DNA of 64,000 nt from a virus (lineage: Duplodnaviria > Heunggongvirae > Uroviricota > Caudoviricetes), in IMG/VR virus record IMGVR_UViG_3300045988_149737; one strand, written 5' to 3'. The translations under genes and the position numbers were made by a program. This document shows, in pieces, positions 3,701 through 41,340 of the stretch. The notes beneath the pieces were generated by a model that searched no databases, was not told the DNA's origin, and worked only from the letters and a program-made list of their open reading frames with translations. How positions within the stretch are numbered: position 1 is the stretch's first letter; each line of letters begins with the position of its first letter.

Positions 3701-3763
3701 GTAAGCCTTGTTTAAACACATAAGATAACAACTTGTTTAAACACATCAAAAAAGGAAAAACAC

Positions 3764-24866: not shown

Positions 24867-26900
24867 ATGACCCAAGTCGCGAAGAAAATTCTGGTGACGT
24901 GCGCGCTGCCGTACGCTAACGGCTCAATCCACCTCGGCCATATGCTGGAGCACATCCAGGCTGATGTCTGGGTTCGTTACCAGCGAATGCGCGGCCACGA
25001 GGTTAATTTCATCTGTGCCGACGATGCCCACGGTACGCCGATCATGCTGAAAGCACAGCAGCTTGGTATCACACCGGAGCAGATGATTGGCGAAATGAGT
25101 CAGGAACACCAGACTGATTTCGCAGGCTTTAACATCAGCTATGACAACTATCACTCGACGCACAGCGAAGAGAACCGTCAGTTGTCTGAGCTTATCTATA
25201 CTCGCCTGAAAGAGAACGGTTTTATTAAAAACCGCACTATCTCTCAGTTGTACGACCCGGAAAAAGGCATGTTCCTGCCGGATCGTTTTGTAAAAGGCAC
25301 CTGCCCGAAATGTAAAGCGCCAGATCAATACGGCGATAACTGTGAAGTCTGCGGCGCAACATATAGCCCGACTGAATTGATCGAGCCGAAATCGGTGGTT
25401 TCTGGCGCTACCCCGGTAATGCGTGATTCCGAACACTTCTTCTTTGATCTGCCTTCTTTCAGCGAAATGCTGCAGGCATGGACCCGCAGCGGCGCGTTGC
25501 AGGAGCAGGTGGCGAACAAAATGCAGGAATGGTTTGAATCCGGCCTGCAACAGTGGGATATCTCCCGCGATGCGCCTTACTTCGGTTTTGAAATTCCGAA
25601 CGCGCCGGGCAAATATTTCTACGTCTGGCTGGACGCGCCGATTGGCTACATGGGTTCCTTCAAGAATCTGTGCGACAAGCGCGGCGATACCACCAGCTTC
25701 GATGAATACTGGAAGAAAGACTCCACCGCCGAGCTGTACCACTTCATCGGTAAAGATATTGTTTACTTCCACAGCCTGTTCTGGCCTGCCATGCTGGAAG
25801 GCAGCAACTTCCGCAAGCCGACCAACCTGTTTGTTCATGGCTATGTGACGGTGAACGGCGCGAAGATGTCCAAGTCTCGCGGCACGTTCATTAAAGCCAG
25901 CACCTGGCTGAATCATTTTGACGCTGATAGCTTGCGCTACTACTACACCGCGAAACTCTCTTCGCGCATCGATGATATCGACCTGAACCTGGAAGATTTC
26001 GTTCAGCGCGTGAATGCCGATATCGTCAACAAAGTGGTTAACCTGGCCTCCCGTAATGCAGGCTTTATCAACAAGCGTTTTGACGGCGTGCTGGCAAGCG
26101 AACTGGCTGACCCTGAACTGTACAAAACCTTTACCGATGCCGCTGAAGTGATTGGCGAAGCATGGGAAAGCCGCGAATTTGGTAAAGCTATCCGTGAAAT
26201 CATGGCATTGGCTGACCTGGCTAACCGCTATGTCGATGAACAGGCTCCGTGGGTGGTGGCGAAGCAGGAAGGTCGCGATGCCGATCTGCAAGCGATTTGC
26301 TCTATGGGCATTAACCTGTTCCGCGTGCTGATGACGTACCTGAAACCGGTACTGCCGAAACTGACTGAACGTGCGGAAGCGTTCCTGAATACGGAACTGA
26401 CCTGGGATGGTATCCAGCAACCGCTGCTGGCACATAAAGTGAATCCGTTCAAAGCACTGTATAACCGCATCGACATGAAGCAGGTTGAAGCACTGGTGGA
26501 AGCATCCAAAGAAGAAGTGAAAGCCACCGCCGCGCCAGTTACTGGCCCGCTGGCTGATGATCCGATTCAGGAAACCATCACCTTTGACGACTTCGCCAAA
26601 GTTGACCTGCGTGTGGCACTGATTGAAAACGCGGAGTTTGTTGAAGGCTCTGACAAACTGCTGCGTCTGACACTGGATCTCGGTGGTGAAAAGCGTAATG
26701 TCTTCTCCGGCATCCGTTCTGCTTATCCAGACCCACAGGCACTGATTGGTCGTCACACCATTATGGTGGCTAACCTGGCTCCGCGTAAAATGCGCTTCGG
26801 TATCTCCGAAGGCATGGTGATGGCTGCTGGCCCTGGCGGAAAAGACATCTTCCTGTTAAGCCCGGATGCCGGTGCTAAACCAGGCCACCAAGTTAAGTAA
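24867..26900 (+). CDS. metG: methionyl-tRNA synthetase
   Basis: 677 aa from ATG at 24867 ([30 protein letters not shown]); matches E. coli MetG as I recall it; ORF track start at 24738 is an upstream in-frame extension. Confidence 0.95.
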
Positions 26901-26948: not shown

Positions 26949-27034
26949 TATAGACACAATCCCTCCTGATTTACACAATCCCTAAAACAATTTGTTTTCT
27001 ACCTTTTGTTGATTGAGATAATAAGCCACATAAG

Positions 27035-27048
27035 AAAACAAATTGTTT
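27035..27048. promoter_or_regulatory. operator-like palindrome AAACAA-at-TGTTT (family 1) in a promoter region
   Basis: Lies after TTTTCT(-35)-17 bp-ATAATA(-10); a second copy aaaacaatttgtttt at 26985-26999 overlaps the -35. Confidence 0.45.
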
Positions 27049-27053
27049 AGGAG

Positions 27054-27302
27054 ATGAAGATGTTTGGAACAGCAAAAGAAATCATCGAGAAACTGAAAAA
27101 CTATCCAGAAGACGAACCCTTACTCATGGTTATGTGGCACAAAGAAGATATTGCTGAAGTAAGGACAGATCTCACTGATGAACAATGCGTACAGGTGATG
27201 CAAAAAATCAGACAATGCCATAACGCTGATGTCGGCGTTAATTGGGAGGTTATATCCACTACGGCGAATGAGTTGTTTCCAAACGGGGAGAGGGGATGTT
27301 AA
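27054..27302 (+). CDS. hypothetical small protein
   Basis: 82 aa; RBS aggag; alternative start 27060. Confidence 0.45.
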   Translation: MKMFGTAKEIIEKLKNYPEDEPLLMVMWHKEDIAEVRTDLTDEQCVQVMQKIRQCHNADVGVNWEVISTTANELFPNGERGC

Positions 27303-27595
27303 ATATTACTCAATCCTACCAGGTGGCATTGATCAGTTCATCTCATACATCAGAGGAAGATGCTCGCCGATTCATGATCGCAAGCAATGAGCTGGATTGG
27401 GTTTCACAAATTGAGTACGGTTGCATAGTTCACGCCGGGTTACAGGACGATGACTGGAAAGATAACTTGCGTCGATATGGTATATCCGAGGGCGCGATTT
27501 CGAACATTCAGAAGGTACTTGATGTAGGCTTTGACTCTGTACATTTTGATTGTGGCGCACCGGTCGTTGAAGGGCTTGAGTGCTGGAACTGGTAA
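27296..27595 (+). CDS. hypothetical small protein
   Basis: 99 aa; overlaps upstream stop; RBS ggggagagggg. Confidence 0.45.
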   Translation: MLNITQSYQVALISSSHTSEEDARRFMIASNELDWVSQIEYGCIVHAGLQDDDWKDNLRRYGISEGAISNIQKVLDVGFDSVHFDCGAPVVEGLECWNW

Positions 27596-27699
27596 ATCTG
27601 AAAACATATTCAAACCGTTGATAATGGCGGTCACAATTTGATTCTTTTCTATAAGAATCCGTTGATCGCCACTACCCCCATTCCATACCCGCAATCACA

Positions 27700-28500
27700 T
27701 CCTTAAATTTCAATAAGTTATAGTTGTTTATACAATCAAGAAAACAACTGAATAACAGATCAACGAAACATCAACGCTTTCACCCGATTTGGTCTAAAAA
27801 ATTGACGTTTTCACACATCACTGCTTATACCCGTAATCCCACGCAGCAGATAGCGCCACAGCGTCCAAATTTCACCACAGACGACCCAACACACTACCAA
27901 CAAAAACACACGCTCAAAATCGCTCTCGTTGCGTTACACAACCATATAAACAACTTATTTTCAGGCATAACAAAACAACTAAATAACACATGTGCCATTA
28001 CCAAAAACAACCAACCTCTTTATGGCAGGCTACCGAAAAGACCCACCTCTTCTTCCCAGGCTACCGGACAACCAACCTAACTTTCACAGGCAATCCGAAA
28101 ACATTCATACGCGCGATACCCACGACACGCCATTCCCCAAACAGCGAAGAAACACCAGAATCACTGAAACCCCAACGAAGCCTGTAACCGCAAGGATTCT
28201 CTCAATCCCAAAAGACACGAAACAGAACAATCACGGGAAACGCCATTACCCAATACACGAATAACTACAAAAGCCTTTCACACACTCCAGACAAACAACT
28301 CAAACACAATAACGAAAGGAATCGCCCACCTGCCATTACTCCATACACGGAGAAGAACAATCACCAAAACGACGAGAACACCCCATAGAAGAACCACTGC
28401 AAAACGAACGAAACCACATACACCGACAGAGAGAACAACACACCCAATTCACCAACAGAAATAGTCGCCGTATAGAACATTCTGGAAGGAGTGAGCATTA
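27700..28500. other. ~800-bp non-coding tract with extreme strand compositional skew (A+C-rich, G- and T-poor on plus strand)
   Basis: By eye G is only around 10% on the plus strand; the only ORF (27724-28080) is low-complexity. Confidence 0.6.
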
Positions 28501-28584
28501 ACGCCTATAGAGAGGTTGAAACAGATAAAACACGAAGAAAACACAACATGTATAGCGAAGAAGCCAGGTATGTATAAGTGGGGA

Positions 28585-28615
28585 GGGAAGGAGGGGTGTC
28601 GCCTCCTTTTTCGTA
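28585..28615 (+). terminator. terminator-like hairpin inside the non-coding region
   Basis: aggagg-ggtgtcg-cctcct followed by ttttcg. Confidence 0.4.
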
Positions 28616-28674
28616 TTTATTCAACTCCTGATTTTATCCCCCGTAACACCCCTACGGTCAGCCTTCGGTCCATA

Positions 28675-28815
28675 CAGGGAAAAGGCTGCATCCCGCTACA
28701 GAAACGGCTGGGTTGCCTTCGGGGAACGGCTGGAGGTTTTCAGGGAAACGGTCGAGTTGCCTGTGTGGATTTCGGGAAAAGGCTCGATGCCGGTTCAGGA
28801 ACGGCGGCGTACCGG
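28675..28815. repeat. six tandem ~22-bp iteron-like repeats (core GGGAAA[A/C]GGC)
   Basis: cagggaaaaggctg / cagaaacggctgg / ggggaacggctgg / agggaaacggtcg / gggaaaaggctcg / aggaacggcggcg in head-to-tail order. Confidence 0.65.
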
Positions 28816-29188
28816 TATAGCGTGAGGGAGAGTTGCGGCTACCCACCTGTAATGTGCGGGAAGAAGAGAGGCGCTAACGTGCAGGCGAACTTACTTACCG
28901 CTGGATTCCCTCTGAATGCCCAACTACAGCGTAATTGTGCCAGACAGCCAACGGGTCACAATCGATTTCAGTAGGTTTTCGGGGAGAGGATTATTCTGCC
29001 CACCAGCCACTTTCGGCCACCAAATCAGAATAATGTAAAAAGTGTACTCGGTACTGAACCTGAAAACTCACTGCCAAAACAACATTCACCGGAATAAAAT
29101 CCTTTTTCGCCTTTGCGTTATTGCGATAATAACGCCAACAAGAAAACAACATATTTAGACGTTGTAGAAACGAAGTGAGGATGAAGAG

Positions 29189-29407
29189 ATGATTAAGATG
29201 CCTGTGACGGTTGAGGTGTGGGGCGTGGATTCCCTGGCTGAGTGTCTGGATGCAGTGGGGCCGGAGTTGTACCGCAAGTTGTGGTCGTTCGTCCCGGCAG
29301 AAGGGGAATCGCCCAAAGGGAAGGATATCTGGCACCTGCTGAGTGAAGATGAAAAGCGGGAGCTGGTGGGCGCGGTACACAGCGAGTTCCCGGACGACGA
29401 AGATTAA
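29189..29407 (+). CDS. hypothetical small acidic protein
   Basis: 72 aa; family-1 operator and RBS upstream; hairpin terminator downstream. Confidence 0.45.
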   Translation: MIKMPVTVEVWGVDSLAECLDAVGPELYRKLWSFVPAEGESPKGKDIWHLLSEDEKRELVGAVHSEFPDDED

Positions 29408-29546
29408 GAGTGAGGCCACCAGCACGGTGGCTTTTGTCGCTATTAACCTCCGGGGCAGCGCAGCACCGTAACGATATACTTTGTGGCCGTTTTCTTACTG
29501 GTATTGTTTACGCAATTCAGAAAACATGTTGTTTAAGGATTGCTTT

Positions 29547-29876
29547 ATGTTTGCAAATATCGACATCAACCAAATCAAGAAATTAACTCAAAAAGAGTTT
29601 GATCAGTTTTATGAGTTAGAAGGTTGGTCTTCCACTCTGATCAATTCGCGGTGGGTGCTTGAGCTGATGACTCGTGATGACGCACCTGCTTTGATGATTT
29701 GCGACATGGGTGAAGATGCTGACTTTATGGATATGAGCGAATTTTGTGTGGACACATACAACCGCAGCCAGAAGTACTACTTCACATGCGATAGCGAAAA
29801 TGACGTGATTTCTAAGGTCTATCTTCACCTCGTCCAGCATTGGGACGTTCAGGAGTTTCTTGAGGTATTCGCGTAA
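29547..29876 (+). CDS. hypothetical small protein
   Basis: 109 aa from ATG at 29547 (RBS aagga); promoter and operator upstream; hairpin aagccagc-att-gctggctt downstream. Confidence 0.45.
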   Translation: MFANIDINQIKKLTQKEFDQFYELEGWSSTLINSRWVLELMTRDDAPALMICDMGEDADFMDMSEFCVDTYNRSQKYYFTCDSENDVISKVYLHLVQHWDVQEFLEVFA

Positions 29877-30030
29877 TCCCAACCAAAGCCAGCATTGCTG
29901 GCTTAACTTAATCTGTAGCCGCAGGGAAGAACCTGCATATCGCTCATGCGCCTGATCAATATGCTTTGTAGCCGTTTTCTTACTGGTATTATTTACGCCA
30001 TTGAGAAAACAAGTTGTTTACGGAGTTGTG

Positions 30031-30342
30031 ATGAAAAGTTCATTGGTTCTTGGTCTGGACAAAGACCAGAAGAGAAAAGAGAAGCCTGCACTGGTTGCTC
30101 AACTAACTTTGCTGGACATCGTTGCCAATGGAACATCTATTCGTCTGTTCCGTGAAACAGCGGTGTCTTTCGATAAAAACACCTTTACTCGTTATGTAAT
30201 GAATGTTCGCCGCCAGCGTGGAAAAGGCTGGATGGCGTTTCAAAGAATGTGGCCGGAACATCAGCTCGAACTGGCCTTGATGGAAGTTAACCGCGTGGCC
30301 CAGCAAGAGATTCAGAGAGCATCAGTGATGGCAATAGCCTGA
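30031..30342 (+). CDS. hypothetical small protein
   Basis: 103 aa from ATG at 30031; ORF track start 30001 is a TTG inside the operator. Confidence 0.45.
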   Translation: MKSSLVLGLDKDQKRKEKPALVAQLTLLDIVANGTSIRLFRETAVSFDKNTFTRYVMNVRRQRGKGWMAFQRMWPEHQLELALMEVNRVAQQEIQRASVMAIA

Positions 30343-30377
30343 TAATGTGCAAGTGGTAATTAGTCGACAGTACGACA

Positions 30378-30408
30378 GCCCCGCCATCCTTACGGGGCTT
30401 TTTTGTTT
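30378..30408 (+). terminator. rho-independent terminator
   Basis: agccccg-ccatcctta-cggggct followed by tttttgtttt. Confidence 0.6.
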
Positions 30409-30468
30409 TGTAAGTACATACTTACGATCATAGAATATAAAAATAACCAATACACTACGGAGAGTGAA

Positions 30469-30864
30469 ATGACCGTTAAACGCGAAAAACTGACAGTTGA
30501 TGTTTACTATGCCTCTGAAACCGCCGAAGGTAAGAATGTGGCAAAAATCACCGTTGTTACGTACAACACCGAAACTGGTGCCGAAGTACAGGCCAGTACG
30601 ATCGTGCGTAAAGGTGATGCCTCCGGCGGCGAGTACGCGACTCAATACCAGTCCATTCTCGATGCAACTGACCCGCTGCTGCTGAAAATCGAGAACTACT
30701 TCCGCCAGGTTGATGAAGAGGTGTTTGAAACCATGATGAATATGGTTAATTCCGTATTCGCCTCCAGCCTGAACACCAGCACCACCTGGATTGGCCAGTA
30801 CGGTCTGCGTATTACCTCCGGCATTCCTGCTGATACCTTAATCCCTGAAAGCGTATTCGCTTAA
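30469..30864 (+). CDS. hypothetical protein
   Basis: 131 aa from ATG at 30469 (RBS acggagag); family-2 palindrome gtaagta-ca-tacttac at 30410-30425 upstream. Confidence 0.45.
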   Translation: MTVKREKLTVDVYYASETAEGKNVAKITVVTYNTETGAEVQASTIVRKGDASGGEYATQYQSILDATDPLLLKIENYFRQVDEEVFETMMNMVNSVFASSLNTSTTWIGQYGLRITSGIPADTLIPESVFA

Positions 30865-30981
30865 TCCTCTTTAAATGGCGCGTAAACCGCGCCATTTTCT
30901 TATGCCCGATAATAATTTGTTTTCTGCCTTATCTGATTTGTGAAAATGATTTCACTGAAGCAACTTAATAAGGAAACCATC

Positions 30982-31356
30982 ATGGGACTTGATATCTACA
31001 TCGAGACGCAGCCAAAAAACGATCTGAATAATGAGGCATCCAGAAAGCGGGTTGCTCACTTCCGTAAGTTCAATGCGCTCGTTGGGTGGATGGAGCGCAA
31101 CGTAGGTGAAGTCGAAAATTGTGAGCTTTTAGAATTAACGATGAATGACATTTGTTTTCTGAAGGCTCATTTGATGCACATAAACGAAAGCAATTGCGAA
31201 GAGTACTTGCCTACTCGGGAAGGTTTTTTCTTCGGCAGTCAGGAGTACGATGAAGGTTACTGGCATGATGTGGGGGAGTTGAAAGAGCTTGTGGAAGATC
31301 TGATTAAGAACCACGACTTTCACAATAACAGACTGACCTTCTGCGCCTGGTGGTAA
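30982..31356 (+). CDS. hypothetical protein
   Basis: 124 aa from ATG at 30982 (RBS aaggaaa). Confidence 0.45.
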   Translation: MGLDIYIETQPKNDLNNEASRKRVAHFRKFNALVGWMERNVGEVENCELLELTMNDICFLKAHLMHINESNCEEYLPTREGFFFGSQEYDEGYWHDVGELKELVEDLIKNHDFHNNRLTFCAWW

Positions 31357-31357
31357 A

Positions 31358-31501
31358 TATGGGCGATTTCAAGAAACGCCTGAAGGAAAGAGCCGAGATG
31401 GCCAGAAAGCAAAACGCCTCTTCTGTCATCAGATACGCAAGGCAGTTTAGTCGCAACAACAAATCAGTTGAGGAAAAGATCCTTAGCGTAATCGAGCGAT
31501 A
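31358..31501 (+). CDS. hypothetical small basic protein (47 aa)
   Basis: ATG 1 nt after upstream stop; below ORF-track cut-off; followed by a terminator. Confidence 0.3.
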
Positions 31502-31507
31502 ATTATT

Positions 31508-31531
31508 AAGACCACCAGCATTGGTGGTCTT
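31508..31531 (+). terminator. hairpin terminator (shared sequence family)
   Basis: aagaccacca-gca-ttggtggtctt; near-identical hairpins at 29414-29437 and 31979-32002. Confidence 0.5.
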
Positions 31532-31691
31532 AAATGACTTTTAATAACCGAAGGTTAATTTTAAACCTGGCTATCAACTTCCAGAACCTTTCTTGTGTAT
31601 TCAGCCTGAATTAACTTCTTTTCTGCCTTATCTACACTGCGATAATTACACCAACAAGAAAACAACATGTTTACGCAGTGAGGATATGCAC

Positions 31692-31973
31692 ATGACTGAT
31701 TTCACCATTACCCCAAAAGCACAAAATGTATTCCTTGAATCATGGCTGGACTTGCCGGAAACAGAACAGCAAGAAATGGATCATGTGGAATATGACGAGC
31801 AGGTAAGCACGCGATTCTTCCACTTTGAGGGCTGCGTTTACGATATTGCCGACTTCATGAGAGATGACCGCTTCCCTGGATGGCACGCAAGCTATCCACT
31901 TAACGCCTTCGCCATGCTGATGATCCGTGTGGGTGATTCAGGGGATACCATCGACATCGGTCTGCTCCACTAA
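31692..31973 (+). CDS. hypothetical small acidic protein
   Basis: 93 aa from ATG at 31692 (RBS tgaggat 7 nt upstream). Confidence 0.45.
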   Translation: MTDFTITPKAQNVFLESWLDLPETEQQEMDHVEYDEQVSTRFFHFEGCVYDIADFMRDDRFPGWHASYPLNAFAMLMIRVGDSGDTIDIGLLH

Positions 31974-31978
31974 AGACT

Positions 31979-32002
31979 AAGGCCACCAGCATTGGTGGCC
32001 TT
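31979..32002 (+). terminator. hairpin terminator (shared sequence family)
   Basis: aaggccacca-gca-ttggtggcctt. Confidence 0.5.
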
Positions 32003-32177
32003 AAATGACCATCTTGTTTCCCGCAGGCTAAAAACACCAACCTCTTACCTCCAGGCAACCGACAAACCCACCTGTTCCCGTCCGGCTACCGCAACTTTCC
32101 ACTTTGACGCCTTATTCGTACAACGATAATTAACACCAACAAGAAAACAATTTGTTATTTACGATAAGGAATTAATC

Positions 32178-32660
32178 ATGAATTTTATCGCTACTGTAAA
32201 CGCACCCGCACATGGCAATATCGCTGTAACGTTCTCTGACATTGAAAAACGAGTACTTGGTGCATGGCGCGACAATGAGACGGTAGAACTGTCAGAACAA
32301 GAAAAATGCATTATTGCACGCGACATCATTGGCAATCGTCGTTACTCGCGGGTATTTGAGAAAGCATATGTGGTAAATTCTGGATTCGGAACGTTCGTCT
32401 TCCCGGTACGCTCCGGGCGATTCTGCCAGTCCAAGCTGATTGAGTTCGCTACGCAGATTTCTGTCTGGATTAAAACTCAATCGTCGTTCAAATTTTCCGA
32501 CGATGAAGCAGTATCGCAGGGGATGCGGATCGCCAACAATGCGATTAAATGCAAAAATATTACGTATACCGCTGGCGTTGACACATGGAAACTGTTTTGC
32601 GCTAACTTTATGCTGAATGTATACGCAAGCAACCGCATCCACATCCTTGATGGCGTGTAA
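32178..32660 (+). CDS. hypothetical protein
   Basis: 160 aa; TTTGAC-17 bp-ATAATT promoter and operator aaaacaatttgtt upstream; RBS aagga. Confidence 0.5.
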   Translation: MNFIATVNAPAHGNIAVTFSDIEKRVLGAWRDNETVELSEQEKCIIARDIIGNRRYSRVFEKAYVVNSGFGTFVFPVRSGRFCQSKLIEFATQISVWIKTQSSFKFSDDEAVSQGMRIANNAIKCKNITYTAGVDTWKLFCANFMLNVYASNRIHILDGV

Positions 32661-32709
32661 CTGAGAAGAGGGCCAGAAACGGCCCTTTCTCTATAGCCAC
32701 CAGCTGCCG

Positions 32710-32800
32710 CAGGGAAATTTTCAGAAACGGCGAGGAACGCATTCATGAGCCGACGGGGAACGGCCAGGATTTTTTCGGGAAACGGCTGCATTCGCCTTTA
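32710..32800. repeat. second array of GGGAAACGGC-type repeats
   Basis: cagggaaatttt / cagaaacggcg / ggggaacggcc / gggaaacggctg; same core as 28675-28815. Confidence 0.55.
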
Positions 32801-33274
32801 TATAGAAAAAACATCGGGAAGCTGGTGGAATCCAACCAGCGGTTGTCGGACAGGTGAGCGGGGAAAATTATGATGACTTTCGTCGCCTGAGACATCCAGA
32901 TTTCTTTCGTAGCGTAATCACATATGTGATTAAGTGGTGTGATTATGTGAAAAATCACGCGCACATAATACGCGAGCGGATACGGAACAAAACAAAATGC
33001 CGATCCGCGCCGACAATTAAACGCGGATCATAAAGCAAGAATAAAAGCCAATGATTAACCATACACCATAGCGCAATATAACGCGTTTTAAGCGCGTTAA
33101 TGTGTTGAGTAATGGGTATGTACTGGTAAGGATATAAAAGCGCGTCTGTGGCGTTATTTTGGCGCTTATTTTATGTTGTTGGAGTGAGTCAAAGACAATA
33201 AAAAAGCGCCATCATTGGCGCGTTATGGTGGAAGTATTAGAAACGAAAAAAGCGCCCATAGTGGGCGCTAGATT

Positions 33275-34798: not shown

Positions 34799-35323
34799 TC
34801 AAAAAGGCAAAATTCGTTCAACCCAATCGAACAAAACAACTATTTTTCTACCGTTCTCGACACGTAGTGTAACCTGACAAGCATCTGCGCCTGCTGACAC
34901 CCCCTCAATTTCACGGCCATCCGCCATGTACACCCTTATAGATTTGTTTGCTTTGTAGGCTTGGTTGCAAATTGCAAAAAAATCGCGGCGTGATGGCCGA
35001 TTATCGACATAATCAGGGTGAACTGTTAGTCGACCTTTGAAATCGTGAGCGATACTGTCAACCACACCTGATTCAATTGTACTAATGCGTTCAAGTGGGA
35101 GCCTTATACGATTTTCTTTGTCAAAAGGGGCTGGGCAAAGGTCAACTTTGTTACGAGATGGCATGAGGCCATAAACGTACATGCAAAACGCCTGGCCATC
35201 TTCGAGAGTGACCCTTACAGGAATTTGTTCTCTGCGCCAGAACATCAGTAGTTTTTCAACGTTAGTGTAATCTCGCGGCCAGAGTTCAGCTTGGATACCG
35301 TAGGTAATATCTTTGGTTGTCAT
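34799..35323 (-). CDS. hypothetical protein
   Basis: 175 aa from ATG at 35323, 4 nt after the lipoprotein stop; ORF-track version to 35401 overlaps the lipoprotein gene. Confidence 0.5.
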   Translation of the reverse strand: MTTKDITYGIQAELWPRDYTNVEKLLMFWRREQIPVRVTLEDGQAFCMYVYGLMPSRNKVDLCPAPFDKENRIRLPLERISTIESGVVDSIAHDFKGRLTVHPDYVDNRPSRRDFFAICNQAYKANKSIRVYMADGREIEGVSAGADACQVTLRVENGRKIVVLFDWVERILPF

Positions 35324-35327
35324 GTCA

Positions 35328-35792
35328 TCACAGAGTTGTTGGCAGAATGTCGATGTCACCAGAATTGCTGGTGAACACCCTGAACGCTTTTGTGTCTCCA
35401 TTCTTCAGAGTCGTTTCTCGCTCTTGACGAGCGGGGTTTAGAGCACATAAACCTGCACCTTCAAGAGATGCACCCACAATTAATTCTCCGGCATTTAAAT
35501 GAAAAGTCGCTTTTTCGCCTGTAGCCAGTTTTGCGACAGTTTCGCCATTGATGAAAATGGAAGCATCACATCCAGCTCCTACAAAACCTGTGTCTCTCAT
35601 TACCACCAACGTAGCTGGCGCTGCGCTTTGATACTTGAACACTTTGGCCTGCGGTGCTGGTTTGGCGTCATGGATTGATATTGGACGTGATTGGCACGCG
35701 GTAAGCATCAACACTGGTAACGTTAGTAGAGGGAGAAGCGAGTGTTTCATGTTAGTTTTAGAACAGAAAGTGAACAGTATGGGAGACTTCAT
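35328..35792 (-). CDS. putative lipoprotein
   Basis: Lipoprotein signal MKHSLLPLLTLPVLMLTAC (lipobox LTAC) if started at internal Met (35750); RBS agggaga supports the upstream Met at 35792. Confidence 0.55.
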   Translation of the reverse strand: MKSPILFTFCSKTNMKHSLLPLLTLPVLMLTACQSRPISIHDAKPAPQAKVFKYQSAAPATLVVMRDTGFVGAGCDASIFINGETVAKLATGEKATFHLNAGELIVGASLEGAGLCALNPARQERETTLKNGDTKAFRVFTSNSGDIDILPTTL

Positions 35793-35818: not shown

Positions 35819-36097
35819 TTATTTTAATCTGCTTAATAGCGTTTCGAGATCTTCCTTTGTCATATTAGAGTTCTCATAGATACGCATGATTTTCTCACGA
35901 GTCTTAGCGGAAGCCCCGACAGAAGATATAACCTTGTCAAAGTCGGCCATTGTCAATTGTTCCAGAATGGTATTTATGACTTCAGCCTTAGACATTTTGA
36001 TATTTTTTTCTTTTAGTTTCACTTGAAACTTTCCAAGTTTGTCATTGGCCTTATCAGACAATGCTACCTGACAGTAAGTTGTTTTCTTTTCACTCAT
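35819..36097 (-). CDS. hypothetical small protein
   Basis: 92 aa, directly downstream of the helicase gene. Confidence 0.5.
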   Translation of the reverse strand: MSEKKTTYCQVALSDKANDKLGKFQVKLKEKNIKMSKAEVINTILEQLTMADFDKVISSVGASAKTREKIMRIYENSNMTKEDLETLLSRLK

Positions 36098-41225: not shown

Positions 41226-41340
41226 TAATAAGACATGCCCAGACCTAATTAAACACCCCAGAAAACAAGTTGGTTAGCAGATGCAGTAAACAAGTTGTTT
41301 TAGAGCGCATGGACGCGCTCTGTGTGTTTTAGAGGGATCT

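What the first reader, a model, noticed from the sequence alone, without database searches (positions are those of the whole stretch)
26980..32700. Array of monocistronic ORFan cassettes with shared promoter, operator and near-identical terminators
At least eight small genes (47-160 aa, none with recognisable motifs) each carry their own sigma70-like promoter (TTTTCT or TTGAC -35, 17-bp spacer, ATAAT-like -10), a family-1 palindrome just downstream of the -10, an RBS and a hairpin terminator. Three terminators are almost the same sequence (core CCACCAGCATTGGTGG at 29414, 31508, 31979). Repeated modular units like this suggest cassette shuffling; such early ORFan arrays in phages commonly encode host-takeover or anti-defence proteins.
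Basis: partly seen in the sequence, partly recalled or inferred. Interest (0 to 1): 0.7.

Follow-up and report, generated by a model that had tools for sequence, protein, structure and literature searches.

The report
Shuffling ORFan cassettes in a phage-plasmid
This stretch of an SSU5/pHCM2-type E. coli phage-plasmid is a fast-changing block of small unknown genes, each with a near-identical promoter, repressor site and terminator, that is silent in the dormant phage and gains and loses genes by recombination between those shared control modules.

Summary
The window is an SSU5/pHCM2-like E. coli phage-plasmid. Positions 26980-32700 hold ten small ORFs in eight transcription units. Seven units carry a 15-bp palindrome, AAAACAA-N-TTGTTTT, 11-12 nt after an extended -10 (TGnGATAAT-like), and seven are followed by hairpins.

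The palindrome is a genome-wide operator, not a local quirk. It occurs 19 times in the 108-kb relative Cyrano against 0.9 expected, almost always just upstream of a start codon (terS, parA, helicase, nrdB and others). Half the copies lie in this array. It behaves as a DNA site: one-sided changes outnumber compensatory ones 106 to 3, and upstream copies sit 51 bp away over the -35.

Published lysogen RNA-seq shows the cassette genes at background.

Relatives differ by whole cassettes. Three indels (378, 471 and 699 bp) equal the spacing of the repeated promoter or terminator modules, and one slot has at least nine length classes.

The proteins are narrow ORFans, mostly acidic, with no family or fold match. 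An anti-defence role is plausible but untested.

The closest precedent is the PeSL promoter/stem-loop cassettes of T4-type phages, here with an added operator.

Also present: a conserved 0.8-kb C-rich noncoding transcript, 22-bp iteron-like repeats, and Chi sites inside the "shared terminators".

The parts
26984..27595 (+). Unit 1. Upstream operator 26984-26998 (over the -35), extended -10 TGAGATAAT 27014-27022, downstream operator 27034-27048. o1 27060-27302 (80 aa, RefSeq 'DUF1380', phrog_10258) overlaps o2 27296-27595 (99 aa, DUF5983). No clear terminator.
   Evidence: the two operator copies are 51 bp apart
27802..28611 (+). Conserved noncoding unit. Promoter TTGACG-17/18-TATACC at 27802-27831, about 777 nt of C-rich, G-poor sequence (A 40, C 30, G 16, T 15 %), intrinsic terminator at 28585-28611. 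Contains three 30/31-bp repeats (28004-28100) and three copies of CCATTAC.
   Evidence: the lysogen signal over the spurious ORF CYRAN_102 is about 6x background
28677..28810 (+). Iteron-like direct repeats GGGAAACGGCT in exact 22-bp phase (28677, 28699, 28721, 28743, then 28774).
   Evidence: conserved in Salmonella, Klebsiella and Enterobacter relatives
29101..29436 (+). Cassette o3. Extended -10 TGCGATAAT at 29122, operator 29142-29156, ORF 29189-29407 (72 aa, pI 4.4), hairpin terminator 29412-29436 carrying a minus-strand Chi (29416-29423).
   Evidence: present in 107 of 245 E. coli carriers; its absence is a 378-bp deletion between promoter repeats
29479..29903 (+). Cassette o4. -35 TTTGTG, extended -10 TGGTATTGT at 29499, operator 29520-29534, ORF 29547-29876 (109 aa, pI 4.2), hairpin 29887-29903.
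   Evidence: (77-nt promoter repeat D8 shared with o5)
29964..30405 (+). Cassette o5. Extended -10 TGGTATTAT at 29984, operator 30005-30019, ORF 30031-30342 (103 aa, basic, pI 10.4), terminator 30377-30405.
30408..30899 (+). Cassette o6. Promoter-like TTGTAA-17-TAGAAT at 30408-30436 with no operator, ORF 30469-30864 (131 aa), terminator 30873-30899.
   Evidence: (30 proteins at E up to 0.001 among 1.84 billion cluster representatives)
30908..31533 (+). Cassette o7-o8. Operator over the -35 at 30908-30922, extended -10 TGTGAAAAT at 30939, o7 30982-31356 (124 aa), o8 31359-31502 (47 aa), hairpin 31506-31533 with a minus-strand Chi (31512-31519) and no U-tract.
   Evidence: its absence is a 699-bp deletion between TTTTCTGCCTTATC promoter repeats
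31593..32003 (+). Cassette o9. Extended -10 TGCGATAAT at 31638, operator 31658-31672, ORF 31692-31973 (93 aa, pI 4.2, misnamed 'ABC transporter' in RefSeq), hairpin 31977-32003 with a minus-strand Chi (31983-31990).
   Evidence: its absence is a 471-bp deletion between the two hairpin repeats
32003..32095 (+). Second set of 30-bp CAGGC(T/A)ACCG...ACC(C/A)ACCT repeats.
   Evidence: families D4, D5
32104..32704 (+). Cassette o10. TTGACG...GATAAT at 32104-32130, operator 32143-32157, ORF 32178-32660 (160 aa, basic), terminator 32667-32692, then a conserved minus-strand Chi at 32697-32704.
   Evidence: the most widely conserved cassette (also in Y. pestis pMT1)
32712..32790 (+). Second iteron-like cluster in 22-bp phase (32733, 32755, 32777), conserved even in pMT1.
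41261..41300 (+). Outside the finding: two operator copies 25 bp apart upstream of terS. Further copies lie at 3724 (nrdB), 13940, 14669, 19212 and 34834 (minus strand).
   Evidence: the same positions in Cyrano
35819..36097 (-). Candidate operator-binding protein. A 92-aa protein whose sequence reads as ribbon-helix-helix-like; its ortholog CYRAN_117 is expressed in the lysogen. A second candidate is the FljA-like gene at 34799-35401 (-).
   Evidence: the assignment is inference only

Best explanation
The interval is the hyperplastic accessory-gene region of an SSU5/pHCM2-type phage-plasmid.

Each cassette is a terminator hairpin, a host sigma-70 promoter of the extended -10 type, a 15-bp palindromic operator (AAAACAA-N-TTGTTTT) placed at about +4 to +18, a short leader, a Shine-Dalgarno site and a small ORF.

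A phage-encoded dimeric DNA-binding repressor, not yet identified, occupies this operator. In several promoters it also occupies a second copy 51 bp upstream over the -35. The same operator guards about 19 promoters around the genome, including replication, nucleotide-metabolism, partition and terminase operons. The cassettes are therefore off in the plasmid prophage and come on together when repression is lifted.

Because neighbouring cassettes share near-identical promoter/operator and hairpin modules, homologous recombination between modules deletes, inserts or swaps whole cassettes. This generates the cassette-level polymorphism seen among relatives.

The proteins (mostly small, acidic, lineage-restricted ORFans) most likely act during lytic growth or establishment on host targets, that is host takeover or counter-defence.

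Shown: the architecture, the statistics, genome-wide operator distribution, DNA-type conservation, silence in a lysogen (published data on a 97%-identical relative), and indel breakpoints in the modules.

Inferred: sigma-70 use, repression as the mode of action, the identity of the repressor, early timing, and protein function.
For: - Identity of the element.
- Operator enrichment: 29 matches against 3.7 expected; 15 against 0.4 in the window and 19 against 0.9 in Cyrano at 12 or more of 14 positions. All but one or two Cyrano sites lie within about 90 nt upstream of an ORF start, and 9 of the 19 lie in this array.
- Module conserved from the -10 through the operator in Salmonella pHCM2, Klebsiella, Enterobacter and Y. 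pestis pMT1.
- DNA-level site: across 58 variants, 106 one-sided changes against 3 compensatory; the central base is free; the RNA hairpin is no stronger than -1 kcal/mol. Upstream copies lie outside the transcript at a fixed 51-bp distance.
- Extended -10 in 6 of 7 operator-bearing promoters.
- Hairpins.
- Silence in the lysogen: CYRAN_101, 105-108, 110 and 111 score 5.7-25.5 against a median of 9.8, as do other operator genes (terS 7.1, helicase 21, cobT 7.8). Source: PMC9928086 supplementary table.
- Cassette polymorphism.
- Indels of 378, 471 and 699 bp equal the repeat spacings. The o6-o10 slot has at least 9 length classes with alternative cargo.
- ORFan status. Seven of ten ORFs have pI 4.2-4.9.
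- DUF1380 sits next to ArdA in a leading-region-like block of pMT1.
- Known anti-defence genes are rare in the SSU5 group (bioRxiv 10.1101/2025.09.12.675607).
Against: - No transcription start sites, no binding data, and no infection or induction time course exist for this element.
- The generic promoter scan did not score these promoters.
- The parA operon has the operator yet is moderately expressed in the lysogen (50-89), so occupancy is not all-or-none.
- terS also carries the operator, which is unusual if this is purely an 'early' switch.
- The intergenic region of the only annotated repressor (CYRAN_45/46) has no operator copy, so the binder is unknown.
- o6 lacks the operator.
- No protein has any similarity to a known anti-defence or host-takeover factor.
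- The expression data come from a relative that lacks o1 and o3.
Confidence: 0.6

Rival explanations
1. The palindrome works at the RNA level. It lies in the 5' leader 10-35 nt before each start codon and is bound by an RNA-binding translational repressor. The obvious candidate is the conserved FljA-like protein encoded 2 kb downstream, since Salmonella FljA represses fliC through its mRNA leader.
For: - A FljA-like gene (Pfam PF03614, E 2.5e-84, with a weak Hfq-like hit) lies at 34799-35401 (-). It is conserved in pHCM2, Klebsiella, Enterobacter and pMT1 at 65-83% identity.
- The downstream operator copy is always in the predicted leader, close to the Shine-Dalgarno site.
Against: - Second copies sit upstream of the -35, outside the transcript, at a fixed 51 bp.
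- The symmetry is conserved as sequence, with 106 one-sided against 3 compensatory changes.
- The hairpin is no stronger than -1 kcal/mol.
- The E. coli fliC leader has no similar motif.
- In the lysogen the transcripts themselves are at background, not just the proteins.
Confidence: 0.12
2. The cassettes are classical morons, that is lysogenic-conversion genes with their own promoter and terminator, expressed from the resident prophage for the host's benefit.
For: - The promoter-ORF-terminator architecture and the presence/absence among relatives fit the moron definition.
- The neighbouring slot carries cargo: metG/apbC here, type I R-M plus DUF262 in Klebsiella.
- A RelE/ParE toxin-antitoxin pair occupies one slot in E. 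albertii.
Against: - The cassette genes are at background in the LF82 lysogen, and the authors' moron list includes only CYRAN_102 and CYRAN_109 from this interval.
- The promoters carry the same operator as the replication and packaging operons.
Confidence: 0.08
3. The region is primarily a replication or maintenance locus. Two clusters of 22-bp-phased iterons bracket o3-o10, so the small proteins would be origin-binding or copy-control factors. The palindromes would then be secondary.
For: - Exact 22-bp phasing of GGGAAACGGCT repeats at 28677-28810 and 32733-32790, conserved across genera and retained in pMT1.
Against: - No DnaA boxes and no AT-rich unwinding element lie nearby.
- RepA and its origin lie about 30 kb away in Cyrano.
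- pMT1 replicates without the first cluster and without o3-o8.
- Cassettes between the clusters are dispensable and variable.
Confidence: 0.07
4. The repeats are only the residue of recent tandem duplications of one ancestral cassette, and the palindrome has no regulatory role.
For: Promoter modules of neighbouring cassettes are 78-91% identical over 55-77 nt.
Against: - The ORFs are unrelated to each other.
- The same 15-mer occurs at unrelated promoters tens of kb away (nrdB, helicase, parA, cobT, terS).
- It is preserved across genera while the flanks diverge.
Confidence: 0.03

Closest known systems
PeSL (promoter-early stem-loop) regulatory cassettes in the hyperplastic regions of T4-type phages (Arbiol et al. 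2010, PMC2839356; Comeau et al. 2014, PMC4122927)
   Same: - Repeated composite modules of a sigma-70-like promoter plus a stem-loop terminator flank small, non-essential ORFan genes.
- Insertions, deletions and replacements between close relatives have their breakpoints in the modules (here 378, 471 and 699 bp).
- The region is a hotspot of novel genes.
   Different: - The host element is a temperate siphovirus-type phage-plasmid, not a virulent T4-like myovirus.
- The module carries a repressor operator, so the cassettes are under immunity control.
- Terminator and promoter are 3-105 bp apart rather than one compact motif.
- Two hairpins carry Chi.
- Mini-circle formation was not tested.
Phage P1 C1 immunity regulon (many dispersed operators controlling scattered operons of a phage-plasmid); from established knowledge of P1
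   Same: - It is a phage-plasmid in which one short operator recurs at many promoters around the genome, including replication and accessory operons. All are quiet in the lysogen.
- The element shares several P1-like genes: TciA/B, HumD, Cra.
   Different: - The P1 operator is an asymmetric 17-mer unrelated in sequence. This one is a symmetric 7-1-7 palindrome, often paired at 51 bp.
- The repressor here is unidentified, and no C1 homologue was seen among the annotated genes of Cyrano.
Morons of lambdoid phages (autonomous promoter-gene-terminator insertions)
   Same: Autonomous promoter and terminator around a single extra gene, with variable presence among relatives.
   Different: Morons are defined by expression from the repressed prophage. 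These cassettes carry the lytic-operon operator and are at background in the lysogen.
Anti-defence islands, for example the leading regions of conjugative plasmids and the early regions of T7 and T5
   Same: - Arrays of small, acidic, fast-evolving ORFs.
- DUF1380- and DUF5983-type proteins occur here, and DUF1380 occurs beside ArdA in a leading-region-like block of pMT1.
   Different: - No cassette protein matches a known anti-defence family.
- The promoters are ordinary double-stranded sigma-70 type, not single-strand promoters.
- Entry order of this DNA is unknown.

Membership tests
PeSL-type mobile regulatory cassettes | Repeated sigma-70-like promoter adjacent to a stem-loop terminator between genes | tested here: met
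   Hairpins with z -3.4 to -6.3 lie 3-105 bp upstream of conserved extended -10 promoters. Promoter repeats are 78-91% identical. Promoter and terminator activity was not measured.
PeSL-type mobile regulatory cassettes | Located in a hyperplastic region rich in non-essential ORFans | tested here: met
   ORFan status. Variable cassette content among relatives.
PeSL-type mobile regulatory cassettes | Indel or replacement breakpoints between relatives fall in the modules | tested here: met
   The 378-, 471- and 699-bp indels equal the spacing of repeat families D2, D16 and D7.
PeSL-type mobile regulatory cassettes | Excised mini-circles formed by recombination between modules | not testable with these tools
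   Needs outward-facing PCR or long reads on induced cultures.
Repressor-operator immunity regulon (P1 C1-like organisation) | The same operator recurs at many promoters genome-wide | tested here: met
   19 sites against 0.9 expected in Cyrano, nearly all upstream of ORF starts. Retained in pMT1 at terS, cobT, o9 and o10.
Repressor-operator immunity regulon (P1 C1-like organisation) | Operator overlaps the core promoter or start site, so that binding excludes RNA polymerase | tested here: inconclusive
   The position 11-12 nt after the -10, plus a second copy over the -35, fits. However, start sites are predicted, not mapped.
Repressor-operator immunity regulon (P1 C1-like organisation) | Controlled genes are silent in the lysogen | tested here: met
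   Published LF82/Cyrano RNA-seq table. The exception is the parA operon at about 5-9x background.
Repressor-operator immunity regulon (P1 C1-like organisation) | An identified cognate repressor binds the operator | tested here: inconclusive
   Candidates are the XRE-type CYRAN_45, a 92-aa RHH-like protein, and the FljA-like protein. None could be tied to the motif, and there is no operator in the CYRAN_45/46 intergenic region.
Moron | Own promoter and terminator; variably present among relatives | tested here: met
Moron | Expressed from the repressed prophage | tested here: not met
   Cassette genes score 5.7-25.5 against a median of 9.8 in the lysogen.
Known anti-defence protein families | Sequence or fold similarity to a characterised anti-defence protein | tested here: not met
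Known anti-defence protein families | Counteracts a defined defence system in vivo | not testable with these tools
   Requires expression in hosts carrying defence systems.

The most novel reading that the evidence does not exclude
The array is the missing counter-defence or host-takeover island of the SSU5 supergroup. That family is present in about 4.5% of complete E. coli genomes, and almost no known anti-defence genes have been found in it. The array would be wired to a previously undescribed global repressor through a 7-1-7 operator and diversified by operator/terminator-mediated cassette exchange. In addition, the adjoining conserved elements would form a new DNA-end-protection or regulatory module. 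These are the 0.8-kb C-rich RNA, the 22-bp iterons bracketing the array, and the conserved, uniformly oriented Chi sites in the intergenic hairpins.
Probability: 0.2. Interest if true: 0.75.

Novelty: new variant of a known kind. Interest (0 to 1): 0.5.

Why it matters
SSU5/pHCM2/pMT1-type phage-plasmids are common in clinical E. coli, Salmonella Typhi, Shigella, Klebsiella and Yersinia pestis. Their regulation is essentially uncharacterised.

- A single 15-bp operator marking about 19 promoters gives a direct handle on the lysis/lysogeny circuit. One can pull down the binder, build reporters, and predict the regulon in any relative.
- The array gives a short list of about ten to twenty small proteins to test for host-takeover or anti-defence activity, in a group where known systems are nearly absent.
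- The exact-breakpoint indels show that promoter/terminator-mediated modular shuffling, described for virulent T4-type phages, also operates in temperate phage-plasmids. That helps explain how these elements pick up cargo.

Tried and rejected
- Rfam scan of 24-36 kb at a permissive threshold: only a chance hit.
- Scan of IMG/VR for the perfect palindrome: scattered single hits in unrelated contigs, uninformative.
- FljA as the binder, tested through the E. coli fliC leader: no similar motif there.
- The noncoding RNA as a sponge for the operator-binding protein or for Hfq: operator half-sites and (ARN)n repeats are not enriched beyond composition.
- The noncoding stretch as a protein gene (annotated as a 245-aa 'coiled-coil' protein in Cyrano): the ORF is not conserved and substitutions show no codon periodicity (78/77/75).
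- The iterons as a replication origin: no DnaA boxes and no AT-rich element.
- A T7-like phage RNA-polymerase promoter reading of 'AATTAAC...CTA-G': dropped, because no RNA-polymerase gene is annotated in Cyrano and the cassette promoters fit the extended -10 sigma-70 type.
- Identifying the repressor through retention in pMT1: the three lysogen-expressed or RNA-binding candidates (CYRAN_45, the RHH-like protein, the FljA-like protein) are all retained, so this did not discriminate.
- AFDB Foldseek was unavailable.
- An August 2026 preprint on an SSU5-like phage-plasmid could not be read. A full-text term count shows 0 uses of 'repressor' or 'operator'.

Full report
**What the window is.**
The 5.8-kb interval matches plasmids only: 262 places on plasmids and 0 on chromosomes, in 245 of 5426 complete E. 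coli genomes. These plasmids are 100-113 kb long and the match is 95-99% identical. It also matches the phages Cyrano, CMS-2020a, PhiR41_1 and, more distantly, SSU5. Annotated relatives show the typical SSU5/pHCM2 phage-plasmid layout. Nucleotide-metabolism and replication genes come first, then a cargo slot (here apbC and metG, with metG ending at 26900). This interval follows, then a minus-strand block ending in a UvsW-like helicase, then two ParB-like genes, terminase, portal, capsid and tail. The same order holds in Salmonella Typhi pHCM2, Klebsiella, Enterobacter and, in truncated form, Yersinia pestis pMT1.

**Checking the observation.**
Ten + strand ORFs lie in the interval. They form eight units, because o1/o2 overlap and o7/o8 are 2 nt apart.

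GAAAACAANNTGTTT with up to 2 mismatches occurs 29 times in the window against 3.7 expected. As a 7-1-7 palindrome, AAAACAA-N-TTGTTTT, at 12 or more of 14 positions, it occurs 15 times against 0.4 expected.
- In seven units it starts 11-12 nt after a -10 element (in the o7 unit only as a copy over the -35, the downstream site being degenerate). Six of those -10 elements are preceded by TGn: TGAGATAAT, TGCGATAAT twice, TGGTATTGT, TGGTATTAT and TGTGAAAAT. From established knowledge of extended -10 promoters, this explains why the weak -35 hexamers made the generic scan miss them.
- The o6 unit has a different promoter-like site and no palindrome.
- Hairpins follow o3, o4, o5, o6, o8, o9 and o10, with z scores of -3.4 to -6.3.
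- The 'shared terminator' core is exact only at 31512 and 31983. The hairpins after o8 and o9 lack a U-tract.

**The palindrome is a genome-wide DNA operator.**
In the complete Cyrano genome there are 19 sites against 0.9 expected. All but one or two lie within about 90 nt upstream of an ORF start. The genes concerned are terS (two copies), parA, the replicative helicase, cobT, nrdB, tciA, several unknowns, and the cassettes. Nine of the 19 sites lie in this array.

- The module from the -10 through the operator is conserved in Salmonella, Klebsiella, Enterobacter and Y. pestis.
- Many promoters have a second copy over the -35, 51 bp from the first: 26984/27035 here, and equivalent pairs in four other genera.
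- Across 58 distinct variants, deviations are one-sided 106 times and compensatory 3 times. The central base is free, and the RNA hairpin is worth no more than -1 kcal/mol.
- A minus-strand copy at 34834 precedes a minus-strand gene in the same orientation.

Together these point to a dimeric DNA-binding protein bracketing the core promoter, that is a repressor, rather than an RNA element. This step is inference.

**Expression.**
The LF82 study supplies per-gene RNA-seq for Cyrano as a plasmid prophage (PMC9928086). Against a median of 9.8, the values are:

| Gene group | Normalised counts |
|---|---|
| Cassette genes | 5.7-25.5 |
| terS | 7.1 |
| Helicase | 21 |
| cobT | 7.8 |
| parA operon | 50-89 |

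The parA operon is the exception among operator-bearing units. Several cassette genes rise in macrophage samples while the terminase genes stay lower. Cyrano is induced 39-fold by ciprofloxacin. So the cassettes are not morons in the classical sense. They belong to the repressed, lytic-side regulon.

**Who binds?**
This is unresolved.
- The annotated repressor (CYRAN_45, XRE-type) is expressed in the lysogen, but its own intergenic region lacks the motif.
- Inside the window, a 92-aa protein (35819-36097, minus strand) reads like a ribbon-helix-helix protein, and its ortholog is expressed in the lysogen.
- A FljA-like protein (34799-35401, Pfam E 2.5e-84) is conserved across the family. However, the E. 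coli fliC leader shows no related motif.
- All three candidates are retained in pMT1, so that comparison did not discriminate.

**Cassette dynamics.**
Among complete E. coli genomes, o4 and o10 are in nearly all 245 carriers (241 and 238). In contrast, o1 (53), o3 (107) and o9 (112) are not. Across genera the order o3-o5-o6-(o7)-o9-o10 is kept, but individual cassettes come and go, and pMT1 keeps only o9 and o10. In 31 IMG/VR loci there are at least eight architectures.

Three indels have lengths that equal the spacing of repeated regulatory modules:

| Missing cassette | Indel | Repeat involved |
|---|---|---|
| o9 | 471 bp | The two hairpin repeats |
| o7-o8 | 699 bp | The TTTTCTGCCTTATC promoter repeat |
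| o3 | 378 bp | Promoter repeats, leaving a hybrid promoter in front of o4 |

The o6-o10 slot has at least nine length classes, from 614 to 3028 bp. Its alternative cargo includes ORFs of 50, 83, 232 and 310 aa and a RelE/ParE pair. All of it sits behind the same operator-bearing promoter, and none has a Pfam or PADLOC match.

This is the behaviour described for PeSL promoter/stem-loop cassettes in T4-type phages (PMC2839356). The differences here are a temperate phage-plasmid host and an added operator.

**The proteins.**
- All have PHROG families of unknown function. Only o2 has a Pfam hit (DUF5983), and none has an NCBIfam hit.
- The o10 and o9 families are confined to contigs of about 100-112 kb from Enterobacterales.
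- o6 has 30 proteins at E up to 0.001 among 1.84 billion cluster representatives.
- Seven of the ten are acidic, with pI 4.2-4.9.

Circumstantial support for a counter-defence role comes from four points. DUF1380 lies beside ArdA in pMT1. The adjacent slot holds a type I R-M system and a DUF262 protein in Klebsiella. The cassettes turn over quickly. Known anti-defence genes are scarce in SSU5-group elements. None of this is a functional test.

**Other features in the interval.**
1. Positions 27600-29100 are noncoding but about 80% identical across genera, which is more conserved than most cassette proteins. The stretch has a conserved TTGACG-17/18-TATACC promoter, about 777 nt of C-rich, G-poor, weakly structured sequence, and an intrinsic terminator. 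It is expressed in the lysogen at about 6x background.
2. GGGAAACGGCT repeats in exact 22-bp phase bracket o3-o10. No origin hallmarks accompany them.
3. The 'shared terminator' core CCACCAGC is the complement of Chi. The window has 21 Chi sites against 1.6 expected, and seven of them lie in 29000-32828. The minus-strand copies after o3, before P_o10 and after o10 are conserved across genera.

**Verdict.**
It is best filed as a PeSL-like hyperplastic region under a dispersed-operator immunity regulon. It is a new variant of known kinds. The operator-binding protein and the protein functions remain open.

Noticed in passing
window 27802-28611: A conserved noncoding unit with promoter TTGACG-17/18-TATACC, about 777 nt of C-rich, G-poor sequence (C 30%, G 16%) and an intrinsic terminator. 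It is about 80% identical in Salmonella, Klebsiella and Enterobacter relatives and shows no codon periodicity. It is expressed in the Cyrano lysogen, where it is annotated as a spurious 245-aa ORF. Function unknown; its composition is that of a very strong Rho-loading region.
   Followed up: partly
window 28677-28810 and 32712-32790: Two clusters of GGGAAACGGCT direct repeats in exact 22-bp phase bracket cassettes o3-o10. The second cluster is conserved even in Y. pestis pMT1. There are no DnaA boxes and no AT-rich element nearby, and the binding protein is unknown.
   Followed up: partly
window 29000-32828, and the whole window: Chi (GCTGGTGG) occurs 21 times in 64 kb against 1.6 expected, and 25 times in the 108-kb Cyrano genome. 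Seven sites cluster in the array, mostly on the minus strand and inside intergenic hairpins. Three of these positions are conserved across genera. Chi polarity switches near 37-40 kb, close to the divergent helicase/ParB promoters and terS.
   Followed up: partly
window 28004-28100 and 32003-32095: Tandem 30/31-bp repeats (CAGGCTACCG-N5-ACCCACCT...) occur in two places, one inside the noncoding transcript and one between the o9 terminator and the o10 promoter. They are conserved in pHCM2 and Enterobacter.
   Followed up: no
window 34799-35401 (-): A full-length homologue of FljA, the Salmonella repressor of phase-1 flagellin (Pfam PF03614, E 2.5e-84), is a conserved gene of this phage-plasmid family, including pMT1. 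It could silence host flagellin, or act on phage leaders.
   Followed up: partly
window 24867-26900, and upstream: The plasmid carries a full-length methionyl-tRNA synthetase gene. By the annotation of near-identical relatives, a divergent apbC sits beside it in the cargo slot just upstream of the array. The same slot holds a type I R-M system plus a DUF262 protein in a Klebsiella relative.
   Followed up: no
window 31359-31533: In the published lysogen RNA-seq, the 47-aa o8 region (CYRAN_109) reads about 58 while o7, 2 nt upstream, reads about 6. This suggests a separate short transcript ending at the Chi hairpin, either a small RNA or an antisense signal.
   Followed up: no
window 41261-41300: Two operator copies 25 bp apart lie just upstream of the small terminase gene, so the packaging and structural operon appears to be wired to the same regulator as the early-looking cassettes.
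   Followed up: partly
window 32916-32931: A perfect 16-bp palindrome, AATCACATATGTGATT, with nearby GTGATTA repeats, lies in the 570-bp convergent intergenic region after o10, next to several bidirectional hairpins.
   Followed up: no
window 31692-31973: Homologues of o9 (93 aa, acidic, no detectable domain) are widely annotated as 'ABC transporter' in RefSeq and nr. This looks like a propagated misannotation.
   Followed up: partly
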